Positions 4,575 through 58,860 of a stretch of 64,000 nucleotides of DNA are shown here, one piece after another. The notes below the pieces were generated by a model, which was not told where the DNA came from, did no database searches, and saw nothing but the letters and a program-made list of their open reading frames with translations. Position numbers and translations under genes: made by a program. Each line of letters opens with the position of its first letter. Positions within the stretch are counted from its first letter, which is position 1. Source of the stretch: Octopus sinensis (lineage: Eukaryota); the NCBI RefSeq assembly GCF_006345805.1, contig NC_042999.1, positions 34,968,001 through 35,032,000 of the forward strand, in the 5' to 3' direction.

Positions 4575-4747
4575 AAATGGTAAGGCAACAAAAGAATAAA
4601 GGAGACCTCGATATTATGTAAATAGAGGAATTTATCTGTAAATTTAGTATGTCACAATTATTCGGTAGCCATGATAAAACCCCGACATCCGAAACTCGGA
4701 GTTTTATCATGGCTACCGAATAATTGTCACATATTACATTGACAGAT
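4575..4747. mobile_element. Fold-back non-autonomous element, family X (HHR-bearing)
   Basis: Inverted arms ...acaattattcggtagccatgataaaac / gttttatcatggctaccgaataattgtcaca...; contains GAAACTCGGAGTT; same family at 10275, 35365, 39618 and 58337. Confidence 0.85.
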
Positions 4748-4876
4748 ATATATATAGATACATATATATATATATATATATATATTATATATATATATAT
4801 ATATATAATATATATATATATATATATATATTATATATATATATATATATATATATATATATATATATATATATAT

Positions 4877-5090
4877 ATATTCTATTGTGTCTGGGGAGAG
4901 TCAGTTTCTTTTTGTGCCTTATTATGTAACACACTCACCGGTAAAAGAGTCAAAACTATTGAAAAGGTTGTAAGACGCAACGAAAATTTTAGGACGATAA
5001 AAATAAGGAAAGCGTGGAAATTTTACCATTGAGTGTGTTACATAATAAGGCACAAAAAGAAAATGACTCTCCCCAGACACAATAGAATAT
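4877..5090. mobile_element. Fold-back element with ~60-bp inverted arms next to (TA)n
   Basis: atattctattgtgtctggggagagtca...acactca / tgagtgtgttac...ccccagacacaatagaatat; related single-arm copies at ~17365-17512 and ~20940-21060. Confidence 0.85.
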
Positions 5091-5180
5091 GCTCCAACAC
5101 ACGAACTTATATAAAGAATCTTGCAAACCAAATCCCAAAACGAAATATATATATATATATATATATATATATATATATAC

Positions 5181-6056
5181 AGTAAAAGCAATTAAGATTC
5201 AAGTGAGTTCTGTTGAATTCACATGAATGAGGTACTTAACTTAGATGCACCAGAAATCTATATGGTATTAACCATAAGATAATGCGGGGTGATTATAAAC
5301 AAGAAAAAAGCAACAAAAATGGATCAATATTTCGGTACAATTGTTTCGTACGAAGACCACCTTTATTAAGGCTGCAAATATTGCAGCAAATACACGTGAC
5401 CTATACTCATCAGCCGAAAAAACATCTGAGTTCTCAAAACATCTAAGGGGGTGAGGCTACACTCATGAAACATTCGGGATAGTTCTATAAAAATCAGATT
5501 TAGATATTAAACGGACTTCCAAGGTTCTTTAATGTTGCACAGTCAAATAACAGGCTTTAAAAAAGTATTTTAAAAAACCTCATAGTTTCACAGAAATTGA
5601 AAATGTAAATCCATCCATAATAATGAAGTATGTTTGAATTCTGGAGATATGAGGAGAGATTTCATACTCACAGACAATGTATTTATCCATAATTAGTTCA
5701 TAATAAAGTGGGTTTCCTGATGTATGATGGTTGCATTTCTGATCATTTCTCAAAACTGCTATGTTAGAATTTGTTGAAGGAAATTTAGTGGAGCGTATAG
5801 ACAATCACTCACAGAGGGTATAATGGGGTAACTGAGAAGAAATGGGGTTGTAAATATCTACCTACGCAGAATAGTTTATTTCAGTGGAGACAAGCTGACT
5901 GGGTCAGAATTTGTAAGAATCTAAGTGTTTTAAAAAAAGGAAAGCTAATCTTTCAGTGGAAACAAAATGTTTCTCATTGCTCACTTTCTGTATATATATA
6001 TACATATATATATATATATAAAACTTTATACAGAAAGTGAGCAATGAGAGACATTT
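5181..6056 (-). mobile_element. PLE-derived relic ending at (TA)n, with HHR and terminal inverted duplication
   Basis: Carries the intact HHR at 5330-5419; 27-bp inverted pair (5965-6056) around a (TA)n spacer; coding similarity is only weak. Confidence 0.55.
5330..5419 (-). ncRNA. Type I minimal hammerhead ribozyme
   Basis: Minus strand UUUCGG-CUGAUGA-GUA...UAC-GAAA-CAAUUG-UA-CCGAAA: perfect 6-bp stem I, canonical core, palindromic stem III loop. Confidence 0.85.
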
Positions 6057-6570
6057 GTAATGCCCTCACTTGATCAACAGGATGTAGCAGCAGATGGCTG
6101 TCACACAATGCCCAACAGCAAAACTTTATCATCTAACAACTGGTCAATAGGAAAATAAATCATATTTATCTTTCGAAGCAAAACCTTAGATTGAAATATC
6201 TGCCATCGACCAAATTCTGCCCGATAGAGGAGGAGGAGGATGACGACGACGACGACGACGAGGATGACGATACGATGACGACGACAGCGACGATGATAGA
6301 CAGATTGTCATCATTCAGATTTGATAAAACTCTACTATTTGACGGACACATATTGCATATTTAATCAATTCCAGAAGGATTATATGTAAAGTAGATTTGG
6401 GGGATGTGATTCGAAATGTAAAGCAATTCTGCTTTAAAACTTCAGAATAATTTATTCAGTGACAGTTAGTTCTGCCATCCGTAACAGCTGAATTATGTTA
6501 AAACATCAAAATGAACGAATGGCTGCGTGGTTAAGAAGTTCGTTTTGCAACTACAAGGTTCCCAGGGATT

Positions 6571-6806
6571 TATGAGGGAGAGCTGAAAAGTTCCTGGCTT
6601 TCAGGGTATCGCGAAAGTCCTGGCTGGAGACCCAGCCTTCTGTGGGTTTTTTTGTTTTGTTTTTCATAGGGCTTAGAAAAACTGAAGGACCGCTGCAATA
6701 AGTGTGTGGTTCTGAGAGGAGAATGTGTTGAATAAAATCATAATTAACTGATCCTTCAATATTTTCATTTGTCCAAAGCCCAGGAATTTTTCAATACACC
6801 CTCATA
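6571..6806 (+). mobile_element. Internally deleted mariner element (MITE)
   Basis: TIRs tatgagggagagctgaaaagttcctggcttt / aaagcccaggaatttttcaatacaccctcata, TA ends; internal GLEKLKDRCNKCVVLRGECVE* matches a mariner transposase C-terminus. Confidence 0.85.
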
Positions 6807-6930
6807 TAATTCTTTATAGATAATTAAATAGATAGATAGATAGATACATACATACATACATACATACATACATACATACATACATACATACATACATGCG
6901 TACGTACGTACATGCATACTTACATAAATA

Positions 6931-56642: not shown

Positions 56643-56690
56643 CATATATACATATATGTATATATATATCTATATATATATATATATATA

Positions 56691-56890
56691 CTTTATTAAT
56701 TAAAGCTGCAAAGACATCACAGAAACGGTTACTCAGAGTTTCACGTTCCCGTCCGTCGGATGGGAACGTGAAACTCTGTGTAACAGTTTTTGTGATGTCT
56801 GCAGCTTTATTAATAAAGCATATTGTTCTACCTCCGGTATTCGAGTACTATTTTTTCTACCTTGTTTTACATTTATGTGCTTACTCTGGT
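56691..56890. mobile_element. Fold-back element with HHR-like motif between (TA)n tracts
   Basis: Palindrome 56691-56818 centred on cccgtccgtcggatggg; GAAA-CUCUGAG-UA; tail homolog at 35630-35710. Confidence 0.8.
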
Positions 56891-56906
56891 ATATATACAT
56901 ATATAT

Positions 56907-57990
56907 AGGCTGTGTGTTAGGAAGCTTGCTTCCCAACCACATGGGTCCGAGTCCAGTCCCACTGCATGGCAACTTTGGCAAGTGTCTTCTACTATAGCAT
57001 CAGGCCGACCAAGGCCTTGTGAGAAGATTTGGTAGGCGGAAACTAAAAAAAGCCTGTCGTAGATATGTGTGTGTGTGCGTGTGTTTGTGTATGTATGTAT
57101 GTATGTATGTATGTATGTATGTATGACAAATGCCTTCTGCTCTAGCCTCTGGCTGACTAGGGTTTGTGAGTGGATTTGGTAGACGGAAACTGAAAGAATA
57201 CCGTCCTATTTATATATATATATATATATATATACTAGCAGTATCGCCCGGCGTTGCTCGGGTTTGTAAGGGAAATAACTATATAAGCATTTTTAGAGAC
57301 TTACTTCCCTTATAGATGCCAATTCGGGCTTTCTTAGCCATTTCTGTTTTGGTGTCTTCATGCCATGAAGTCGTTGTTCTAAAAGAACGCTGGTCTCCTT
57401 GACTACGCATTACGACGTTGATTTCTTTACACTCCCTCCCCCCACAGCTTCACGAGGGAGGGAAGGGGGAGAAGCAAACAGGTACAGCTGTGAGCATGGA
57501 CGCCAACTCCGCCGCCATCGACATACGATGCATTTTATGCATTAAAATGGAATAAAAAATGATGTTAAATTATTTTTTTTAAATCGTAGACTCATCGTTG
57601 ACGTGCGCTAATAGCCAGACGGGCTCGATATAAATCACGACTATAAGATACCCGAATTTGGTTAAACTGCACCGCAAAATGTGGGAGGAGTTAGGAATCT
57701 AAATCGAAGGGGACAGACACTCACACAACTAGAGTTTTTATATATATATATATATATATATAATATATATATATATATGCATGTATGTGTCTGTGTTTGC
57801 CCCCACCCTCTGCCATCGCTTGATAACCTATCTTGGTGTGTTTACATCCCCCCAAAATTAGAGGTTCGGCAAAATTGACCGATATAATAAGTACTGGGCT
57901 TACAAAGAATAAGTCTGGGAGTCGATTTTTTCGACTAAAGACAGTGCTCCAGCATGGCCGTCGTCAGTGATTGAAACAAATAAAAGAATA
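56907..57990 (+). mobile_element. SINE family C split by a partial duplication and a Helentron-like insertion
   Basis: Head 56907-57060, repeat 57126-57205, tail 57781-57990. Confidence 0.8.
57234..57740 (+). mobile_element. Non-autonomous Helentron/HINE (Lep1/DINE-1-like) element
   Basis: Begins actagcag with hairpin gcccggcgttgctcggg, ends gacagacactcacacaactagagtttt; (TA)n on both sides, no TSD. Confidence 0.65.
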
Positions 57991-58039
57991 AACGAAGAAA
58001 AGAATATATATATAAATATTCTCTTATATGTTTTAGCCT

Positions 58040-58245
58040 TGTGTGTGTGTATCTATGTTTGTCTTCTCGACAACCGTTGTTGGTGTGTTTACGTTACTGT
58101 AATCTAGCGATCGGTAGAAAGAGACCGATAGAATAAGTACTAGGCTTACAAAAAATAAGTCCTGGAGTCGACTTCTGCGACTAAAAAGCATGCAAGTTGG
58201 TGCTCCAGGGTGGCCGCAGTCAAATGGCAGAAACAAATAAAAGAA
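58040..58245 (+). mobile_element. SINE family C tail
   Basis: gagaccgatagaataagtactaggcttac...gcagtcaaatgg. Confidence 0.8.
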
Positions 58246-58336
58246 TGCATACATACTACATACATACATACATACATACATACATACATACATATATATA
58301 TATAGCTACATGCATACATACATATATATATATATA

Positions 58337-58860
58337 ATATGTGACAATTATTCGGTAGACATGATAAAACTCCGAGTTTCGGATGCCGAGGTGGAAATCC
58401 ACACCGCTGTCTCTTCAGTTATCCGGCCATCGGAAGAATGCTATGAAAAATTACCGTTATACAAAGGGAAATTACTGTGATTGACCGTTATTAAGACAAA
58501 AGAGCTAATCGAATGACCACTAAATAAGGGGAGGGAATAAAGTATAGGGGTAAGAAGTTTATAGTATTCGCGTAAGCGCGCCTGTTCATACCTACACATG
58601 TGCGCCCGCACACCCACTTGCGTACGCCTAATGCTATACATTCATCCACCCTCACTTGAAAACGTATACATCTTCACTCCCATCCTTCGTCAAATGTATA
58701 TGCATATACATACAAACTCACACACGCGCGCATCGCGGCATGCGAAACTTTTATCATGGTTACAGAATACTTGTCACATATTACTTTTACATATAAATTC
58801 CTCTACTTACATAATATCGATGTCTCTTTCTTTCTTTTGTTGTCTTACCGTTTTTATCAA
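58337..58860. mobile_element. Family X element with inverted arms separated by ~350 bp
   Basis: Arms 58337-58390 and 58735-58860 in opposite orientation; (TA)n on both sides. Confidence 0.75.
58363..58423 (-). ncRNA. Hammerhead ribozyme-like motif (family X)
   Basis: GAUAA-CUGAAGA-G...C-GAAA-CUCGGAG-UU-UUAUC; perfect 5-bp stem I, imperfect stem II base. Confidence 0.72.

What the first reader, a model, noticed from the sequence alone, without database searches (positions are those of the whole stretch)
4575..58860. Family X: five copies of an HHR-bearing element, each folded back at a different point
The module ggtaagacaacaaaagaa...gacctcgatattatgtaa...tgtgacaattattcggtagccatgataaaactccgagtttcggat occurs at 4575, 10275, 35365, 39618 and 58337. 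The outer end is fixed against a microsatellite, while the spacer varies (~5, ~20, ~50, ~350 nt, or no second arm). The HHR is complete in two copies (stem III CUC-N-GAG, GUU site). Variable truncation with inversion indicates retrotransposition.
Basis: partly seen in the sequence, partly recalled or inferred. Interest (0 to 1): 0.72.

Follow-up and report, generated by a model that had tools for sequence, protein, structure and literature searches.

The report
Two-armed stubs of a Penelope retrotransposon
The five repeats are cut-short tail ends of an abundant jumping gene of an already described group (Hydra-type Penelope elements) that carries a predicted self-cutting RNA; its back-to-back copies nearly always pair one long end with one short end, likely because copying starts at two fixed sites.

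Summary
The five loci are real. They are 5'-truncated 3' ends (pseudo-LTRs) of a Hydra-clade Penelope-like retrotransposon (PLE). Elsewhere in the genome the same sequence flanks a ~700-codon reverse transcriptase + GIY-YIG ORF as direct repeats (2.59-kb unit), so it is not a DNA-transposon TIR. The Hydra motifs (RWK, DKT, CxCx5C, CxxC/CxH) and (TA)n targeting are present. A type I hammerhead lies on the minus strand at 58424-58363 and 10360-10299, damaged in both copies. It matches 4,448 places in the genome; cleavage is untested. The copies are not fold-backs with one fixed outer end: they are two separately truncated arms joined head to head, one ending ~45 nt and the other ~112 nt past the cleavage site (24 of 26 pairs by script, 0 long-long; 7 of 7 in a younger subfamily). 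Both ends lie at an ATA|AAT-N1-2-CCTC motif. Inverted truncated copies, the one-sided tail and the hammerhead are all described for PLEs. The likely mechanism is twin priming at two start sites. This scan noted the same pattern before on other DNA, in this genome and others. Verdict: a new family of a known kind, modest interest.

The parts
4570..4685 (-). Copy 1, long arm (subfamily A): element positions -8 to about +110 from the cleavage site; outer end abuts a (GATA)n tract
4679..4748 (+). Copy 1, short arm: -25 to +45; holds GAAA, stem III and the GUU site (4691-4703) but no CUGANGA; overlaps the long arm by 7 nt (microhomology); followed by (TA)n
10270..10360 (-). Copy 2, short arm (subfamily C), 5'-truncated inside stem I of the hammerhead
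10299..10360 (-). Type I hammerhead motif: CUGAUGA 10354-10348, GAAA 10316-10313, site after GUU at 10304; only about 3 contiguous pairs left in stem I
10361..10674 (+). Copy 2, long arm: CUGAUGA part deleted, tail interrupted by (TA)n (about 10440-10545) and by an extra ~30 nt; ends in (TTA)n
   Evidence: layout read by eye against subfamily C loci
35362..35468 (-). Copy 3, long arm (+3 to +110), no hammerhead core
35467..35516 (+). Copy 3, short arm (-5 to +45); 2-nt overlap at the junction; followed by (TA)n
39620..39743 (+). Copy 4, single long arm (-13 to +112), stem III mutated, followed by (TA)n
58335..58731 (-). Copy 5, short arm (ends at +33): about 300 nt of 3' UTR plus the hammerhead; 87% identical to the UTR behind the ORF in L033
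58363..58424 (-). Type I hammerhead motif: GAUAA / CUGAAGA (58418-58412) / long stem II / extra C / GAAA (58380-58377) / ACUC-G-GAGU / site after GUU (58368) / UUAUC; two substitutions weaken stem II
58736..58861 (+). Copy 5, long arm (-21 to +112) with a short deletion in stem III; followed by (TA)n

Best explanation
These are non-coding, 5'-truncated 3' ends of a Hydra-clade Penelope-like retrotransposon, and each two-armed copy likely records two cDNAs primed from the two strands of a cut (TA)n target and then joined head to head. Shown: full-length copies are [3'UTR-hammerhead-tail]-5'UTR-ORF-[3'UTR-hammerhead-tail]; arms end at one of two sites; head-to-head pairs use one of each; outer ends lie against microsatellites. 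Inferred: the GIY-YIG domain nicks both strands of (TA)n; each 3'-OH primes on a few bases of AUA in the RNA at one of two ATA|AAT-N1-2-CCTC sites about 67 nt apart, probably on one RNA held by two enzyme copies; both cDNAs stop early at unrelated points and are joined with short microhomology or filler; loss of one arm gives single-armed copies such as 39618. The hammerhead likely processes tandem transcripts slowly or as a dimer (palindromic stem III with a 1-nt loop); this is untested.
For: ORF linkage: L033 and L031, on different contigs, are collinear for 1,868 nt at 87% from ORF through hammerhead. In 24 of 30 ORF-seeded loci the BLAST match runs on to or includes the hammerhead region (by eye). 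Full-length copies have a hammerhead-to-hammerhead period of about 2,585 nt with direct repeats at 97-99.7%. Hydra motifs are in the ORF (against PMC8557442 section 11). The AlphaFold model (pLDDT 85.6) matches reverse transcriptases, telomerases among them. Ends are bimodal: 35 at +112 and 24 at +45 of 86 arms. Head-to-head pairs: 24 long+short, 2 scored short+short, 0 long+long of 26; P about 4e-6 under independent choice. Subfamily B: 7 of 7 pairs with both ends visible. The motif occurs exactly twice in the 2.59-kb unit, once at each end. The anole Poseidon protein cleaves and extends both strands in vitro and starts RT at two internal sites that bound the tail (PMC11167929).
Against: None of the 8 near-full-length loci fetched has one unbroken ORF; the longest open stretch is 545 aa. 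Whether the breaks are real or assembly indels is open. Pfam gave only sub-threshold GIY-YIG hits (E 0.025-0.039) and no RT hit. PDB sequence searches found nothing. No GIY-YIG structure is among the listed Foldseek rows, and the top rows are bacterial RTs. Rfam found no hammerhead. The hammerhead fold was less stable than the minimum-energy fold in 30 of 30 copies. Covariation within mostly subfamily A is weak (8-21 of 500 shuffles reach the observed values). Exceptions to the rule: L023 ends at +68 and L074 is unresolved. The end motif was defined after seeing the two ends, so its shuffle test is circular. Target-site duplications cannot be read in microsatellites. In the anole element, hammerhead mutants did not affect insertion in vitro.
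Confidence: 0.8

Rival explanations
1. Same family, but the inversion comes from one cDNA that switches template or folds back, or from two RNAs primed independently; the short end is then set by trimming or by second-strand priming rather than by a second RT start site.
For: Short ends scatter from about +3 to +53 while long ends are sharp. Some copies hold extra inverted ORF pieces, e.g. L033 3962-4103. Craig et al. ascribe the tail to EN-mediated resolution of the intermediate (PMC8557442).
Against: Independent priming predicts long-long pairs; 0 of 26 and 0 of 7 were seen. A simple fold-back predicts one shared turning point, but the inner ends of the two arms differ by tens to hundreds of nt. 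The short end has a strong mode at the same motif as the long end.
Confidence: 0.15
2. The short copies are a separate non-autonomous element (retrozyme or SINE-like) that amplifies from its own hammerhead-processed small or circular RNA using the PLE enzyme.
For: Short copies far outnumber ORF copies: 3,027 first-look candidates for the hammerhead region against 290 for the ORF start. L136 has three ~519-nt direct units, each with a hammerhead. Retrozymes are proposed to derive from PLE pLTRs (bioRxiv 10.64898/2026.07.22.740005).
Against: The 5' ends are scattered with no fixed start. The sequence runs on into the ORF in longer copies. Three of the five window copies lack the hammerhead core. 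No tandem array occurs in the window.
Confidence: 0.04
3. The arms are terminal inverted repeats of a foldback or MITE-type DNA transposon that inserts at TA.
For: Inverted arms with TA-rich flanks.
Against: The outer ends are unequal, the inner ends are random, single arms are common (34), and the same sequence is a direct repeat on both sides of an RT-EN ORF.
Confidence: 0.01

Closest known systems
Hydra clade of C-terminal EN+ Penelope-like elements; nearest listed member Hydra-1_Obim of Octopus bimaculoides (Craig et al. 2021, PMC8557442; abstract, passages, section 11, supplement part 2 and passages seen)
   Same: Unit under 3 kb, single RT-EN ORF, RWK, DKT, CxCx5C, CxxC and CxH, (TA)n insertion, hammerhead near the 3' end. 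Stem III ACUC-N-GAGU also occurs in Hydra-2_aMil, Hydra-1/2_aJap and Penelope-3/16_HM. The protein shares distinctive stretches with Hydra-1_Obim by eye.
   Different: Not the same family as Hydra-1_Obim: protein visibly diverged (identity not computed), different hammerhead stems, and clear pLTR tandems here where Hydra-1_Obim is listed with no pLTR. Stem II is about 31 nt, longer than in the listed Hydra rows, with one extra C/U before GAAA. The tail is about 67 nt against the 30-40 bp given for PLEs. RT motif C reads YKDD; the young subfamily has C at core position 4.
Poseidon element PAc of Anolis carolinensis (Frangieh et al. 2024, PMC11167929; parts 1-2 of 4 read)
   Same: Two 3' ends bounding a tail, AT-rich targets, hammerhead in the pLTR, tandem layout.
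   Different: Different clade. In PAc the ORF starts inside the hammerhead and RT starts within the ORF; here both ends lie in non-coding sequence and the ATG is about 105 nt past the long end. PAc was tested in vitro; this family was not.
Metazoan PLE hammerheads (Cervera and De la Pena 2014, PMC4209133; parts 1-2 of 4 read)
   Same: Type I motif in pLTRs, long helix II, small palindromic helix III suited to dimers; opposite-strand pairs 100-700 bp apart are mentioned there.
   Different: The unpaired base described there is at the 5' side of stem II; here it is at the 3' side (or is a bulge after the first pair). Stem I here is longer, with a distal helix.
Non-LTR retrozymes (bioRxiv 10.64898/2026.07.22.740005; part 1 of 5 read)
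   Same: Non-coding sequence with a type I hammerhead related to a PLE pLTR.
   Different: Retrozymes are tandem arrays of fixed monomers; these are dispersed, randomly truncated, head-to-head stubs of a coding element.
L1 twin priming (recalled, no call)
   Same: Two target 3' ends prime two cDNAs that are joined to give an inversion.
   Different: In L1 the second primer anneals at a variable internal site and the segments barely overlap; here both starts are fixed and both arms copy the same region.

Membership tests
Penelope-like elements (EN+) | Single ORF with RT and C-terminal GIY-YIG endonuclease | tested here: met
   RT motifs A and C and IIYEA..YVG found; fold matches RTs; Pfam GIY-YIG only below threshold; ATG-to-stop span 2,096-2,128 nt in 5 copies, all with breaks
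Penelope-like elements (EN+) | Pseudo-LTRs from partial tandems; inverted 5'-truncated copy | tested here: met
   Direct repeats at 97-99.7% with ~2,585-nt period, and inverted arms, in L129-L136
Penelope-like elements (EN+) | Tail present at one end only | tested here: met
   Ends at +45/+112 (A) and +40/+107 (B); one of each per pair; longer than the 30-40 bp in PMC8557442
Penelope-like elements (EN+) | RT groups with PLE/telomerase RTs in a phylogeny | not tested
   No named reference set was available for a tree; Foldseek lists telomerases among many RTs without singling them out
Hydra clade | RWK and DKT motifs | tested here: met
   RMRWKAFFF and SDKTKN in L133; DKT/S in 76 of 76 and RWK in 53 of 76 homologs of 650 aa or more
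Hydra clade | CxCx5C linker; CxxC and CxH beside the conserved E and N; CCHH absent | tested here: met
   CSCRNKELC, CGLCDME and N..R.E...CPH present; no cysteine pair inside the GIY-YIG core, read by eye from the alignment
Hydra clade | Length under 3 kb; insertion into (TA)n | tested here: met
   Unit about 2.59 kb in subfamily B; subfamily A has a longer 3' UTR and its full length was not determined; most outer ends abut (TA)n, some (CA)n or (GATA)n
Neptune / Nematis clades | CX2-5CxxC linker and CCHH in the endonuclease | tested here: not met
   Linker is CxCx5C and CCHH is absent; my first guess, rejected
Type I hammerhead ribozyme | Core C3-A9, G12-A14, A15.1-U16.1, H17 with three stems in order | tested here: met
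   65 of 90 distinct sampled copies match the core pattern; 92% of cells paired and 0 of 500 shuffles reach the covariation score across subfamilies, but related sequences can give this, and only 3 of 19 pairs change on both sides; deviations: extra C/U before G12, U4C in subfamily B
Type I hammerhead ribozyme | Self-cleavage after NUH | not testable with these tools
   Needs a cleavage assay; only assembled contigs were available
TIR DNA transposon / MITE | Equal inverted termini; no RT linkage | tested here: not met
   Unequal ends; direct-repeat flanking of an RT ORF
Non-LTR retrozyme | Tandem fixed-length monomers each with a hammerhead | tested here: not met
   Window copies are dispersed and variably truncated; one locus elsewhere (L136) has three short direct units

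The most novel reading that the evidence does not exclude
Hydra PLEs insert by strictly asymmetric twin priming: one RNA carries two copies of a short start signal (ATA|AAT-N1-2-CCTC) about 67 nt apart, two enzyme copies each prime one target strand at one signal, and the downstream RT displaces the first cDNA. This would explain the tail and the inverted pLTR in one step and name the exact bases to mutate. The hammerhead with an extra base before GAAA (4,448 matches with it, 5 without) may also be an active, undescribed core variant.
Probability: 0.4. Interest if true: 0.55.

Novelty: new member of a known kind. Interest (0 to 1): 0.27.

Why it matters
As an annotation it is ordinary: stubs of a described retrotransposon clade with described features. 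Its value is as material for an open question, how PLEs make inverted pLTRs and tails (named as open in PMC8557442). A young subfamily with 97-99% identical near-full-length copies, a strict one-long-one-short rule and a short motif at both ends gives a directly testable model. It also shows a hammerhead with thousands of matches that Rfam missed in this window.

Tried and rejected
Rfam scan of the window: no hammerhead; only sub-threshold miRNA/snoRNA matches, mostly on simple repeats. The repeat finder was swamped by microsatellites. Single-sequence folding gave no significant z-score (-0.3 to -1.6). Pfam found nothing relevant for the L033, L034 and L035 fragments or for 3 homologs. PDB sequence searches were blank. 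Neptune assignment: rejected after reading the clade diagnostics. TIR/MITE and retrozyme readings: rejected (see rivals). RT fragments upstream in L034 and the EN fragment in L035 were not treated as part of this family, because DNA similarity to the ORF-bearing loci does not extend into them. Expression: no RNA holder listed. Contigs of 8 runs guessed to be RNA cover the unit and cross the hammerhead site, but cannot show strand, starts or cleavage. Adapter-like loose ends (identity recalled) occurred at three different places, so no transcription start was called. Dimer prediction for the N-terminal 335 aa: no verdict, score 0.00; not used as evidence. A paper on dimeric PLE hammerheads was not held and is not relied on. 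Look-up of earlier findings by sequence returned nothing.
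Full report
Observation. The five loci are related by BLAST and are part of a large family. An exact 31-mer occurs 509 + 505 times in the 2.7-Gb own genome, the reversed control 0 times. Arms, numbered from the predicted cleavage site: 4570-4685 minus (-8 to +109) with 4679-4748 plus (-25 to +45); 35362-35468 minus (+3 to +110) with 35467-35516 plus (-5 to +45); 39620-39743 plus alone (-13 to +112); 58335-58731 minus (ending at +33) with 58736-58861 plus (-21 to +112). The 10275 copy is a more distant subfamily with a short minus arm and an interrupted long plus arm. 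So there are two outer ends, not one, and the inner ends of the two arms are independent.

Parent element. A genome search with the hammerhead region gave 3,027 candidates, 40 scored, 30 fetched. L012/L013 and L027 carry a GIY-YIG-like ORF upstream on the same strand. Extended loci on two contigs are collinear for 1,868 nt at 87% from ORF to hammerhead. The window's 58335-58731 arm matches the UTR behind that ORF at 87-89%. Searching with the ORF and with its 5' end led to near-full-length copies laid out as 3'UTR-hammerhead-tail, ~105 nt 5'UTR, ATG, ORF, 3'UTR-hammerhead-tail, (TA)n, with a period of about 2,585 nt. These belong to a young subfamily B (96-98% identical to L129 over about 3 kb); its ORF is 84% identical in DNA to the subfamily A ORF fragment. 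Subfamily C also links to the ORF: L139 continues into a 5'UTR and ORF at 77% amino-acid identity. None of the 8 long loci has an unbroken ORF; the longest open stretch is 545 aa. The full length of subfamily A, to which four window copies belong, was not determined.

Clade. Craig et al. (PMC8557442, section 11 read whole) define Hydra by RWK, DKT, a CxCx5C linker, CxxC and CxH beside the conserved E and N, no CCHH, length under 3 kb, canonical hammerheads and (TA)n insertion. The motifs are all in this ORF and in most of the 120 listed homologs of 265 found. Their supplement lists Hydra-1_Obim, whose protein resembles this one by eye but whose hammerhead differs. The host is therefore likely an octopus (inference). 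Library support was weak: Pfam GIY-YIG E 0.025-0.039, below cut-off; no PDB sequence hit. The AlphaFold model of the 545-aa stretch (pLDDT 85.6) matched RTs: DRT2, retrons and telomerases, best E 3e-9. No tree was built.

Hammerhead. The family form is a type I motif: stem I GAUAA/UUAUC with a distal helix, CUGAAGA, a ~31-nt stem II, one extra C or U, GAAA, ACUC-N-GAGU, GUU site. 65 of 90 distinct sampled copies match the core pattern. A pattern with the extra base matches 4,448 places, the same pattern without it 5. 56 of the first 100 listed matches (counted by eye) have C at core position 4, the subfamily B form. On 30 mostly subfamily A copies covariation is weak. On 24 copies chosen from three subfamilies, 92% of cells pair, 0 of 500 shuffles reach the score and slid controls give 33-53%, but only 3 of 19 pairs change on both sides and relatedness inflates the test. 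Against activity: Rfam saw nothing, and the constrained fold is above the minimum-energy fold in 30 of 30 copies; both window copies are damaged. Irregular bases at the foot of stem II and this stem III are common in the published Hydra table, so the variant is minor. Passages of PMC3088659 list insertions after A6, at 13a and near C3, not this one; one search for it listed 4 papers, only that one relevant. Low activity and dimer folding are reported for metazoan PLE hammerheads (PMC4209133, parts 1-2).

End rule. I mapped arms in 60 fetched loci (L002-L030, L033, L074-L103) plus the window, dropping 8 loci as duplicates; L001 is the window's own copy and was left out. Of 86 arm ends, 35 are at +112 and 24 at +45. 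Of 26 head-to-head pairs the script scored 24 long+short, 2 short+short, 0 long+long. One of the 24 (L023) ends at +68. One short+short (L074) has an arm broken off by other sequence; the other is window 10275, long+short by eye. With single-arm frequencies (19 long, 15 short) as the null, P(at least 24 of 26) = 4e-6 and P(no long-long) = 6e-5; some 'single' arms may have partners beyond the 1.5-kb flank. In subfamily B, 7 of 7 pairs with both outer ends in view (L068, L070, L072, L073, L132, L133, L135) are long+short; loci with one end out of range or in a gap were not counted. The modal ends, +40 and +107, both lie at ATA followed by AAT-N1-2-CCTC, a motif found exactly twice in the unit; the long-end copy is also in subfamily C. 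The motif was defined after the fact. Junctions range from 7-nt overlaps to fillers of tens of nt.

Mechanism. Shown: layout, two ends, one of each per pair, microsatellite flanks, random 5' ends. From the literature: inverted truncated copies and a one-sided tail are typical of PLEs (PMC8557442); the anole Poseidon protein cuts and extends both strands, starts RT at two internal sites that bound the tail, is predicted to be a dimer, and does not need hammerhead cleavage in vitro (PMC11167929, parts 1-2). Inferred: both strands of (TA)n are nicked, each end primes at one of the two sites through a short AUA match, probably on one RNA, and the two unfinished cDNAs are joined. I put about 0.97 on the family identity and about 0.6 on twin priming at two sites; one RNA rather than two is less certain. 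One paper search for Penelope with twin priming, inverted and tail listed a single review on human elements (listing only), so I did not find the explicit model in print; that search is narrow.

Context and verdict. Earlier notes of this scan describe the same long/short two-arm pattern and Hydra assignment on other DNA, in this and other genomes. They are unchecked AI notes, not support; one led me to the Hydra-1_Obim entry. A repeat annotation of Octopus vulgaris counts Penelope-like families without mentioning hammerheads (PMC13282606, passages). The finding is a real, correctly sensed retrotransposon feature of a known clade. Novelty: new member of a known kind. Interest 0.27.

Noticed in passing
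window 35014-35052 and 56229-56267, minus strand: Two copies of a second, unrelated hammerhead-like motif (C at core position 4, short stem II, extra base after A9) from another repeat family.
   Followed up: no
window 2479-3270 minus; weaker at 22162-22365 and 1018-1194: Decayed ORF remnants 30-46% identical to the Hydra protein: other PLE families in the window.
   Followed up: no
window 4880-5095: Another small inverted-arm element directly after copy 1, with relatives at 17365-17479 and 20934-21008.
   Followed up: partly
window 34010-34820: AT-rich long inverted repeat (169-nt core arms at 34349-34517 and 34552-34720) between microsatellites, with an extra partial arm at 34010-34076.
   Followed up: partly
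window 11576-11835, 47288-47547, 59116-59375; and 17200-17402, 51261-51463, 56908-57110: Two further dispersed repeat families (260 nt at 88-95%; about 200 nt at 75-80%), SINE-like in size.
   Followed up: no
L136:331-1984: Three ~519-nt direct units, each with hammerhead, tail, 5'UTR and ORF start, in front of a full copy; resembles repeated laps round a small circle or repeated template jumps.
   Followed up: no
L031:2602-8655: A 3.0-kb tandem duplication at 99.7% that includes an ORF-bearing stub; segmental duplication or assembly artefact.
   Followed up: no
L034:2680-3777 and L035:3771-6873: Fragments of other PLE-like families next to family X stubs: RT-like pieces in L034, an inverted pair of GIY-YIG fragments in L035.
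   Followed up: no
subfamily B, e.g. L132: The youngest subfamily has C instead of U at hammerhead position 4 and YKDD at RT motif C, yet has many 97-99% identical copies.
   Followed up: partly
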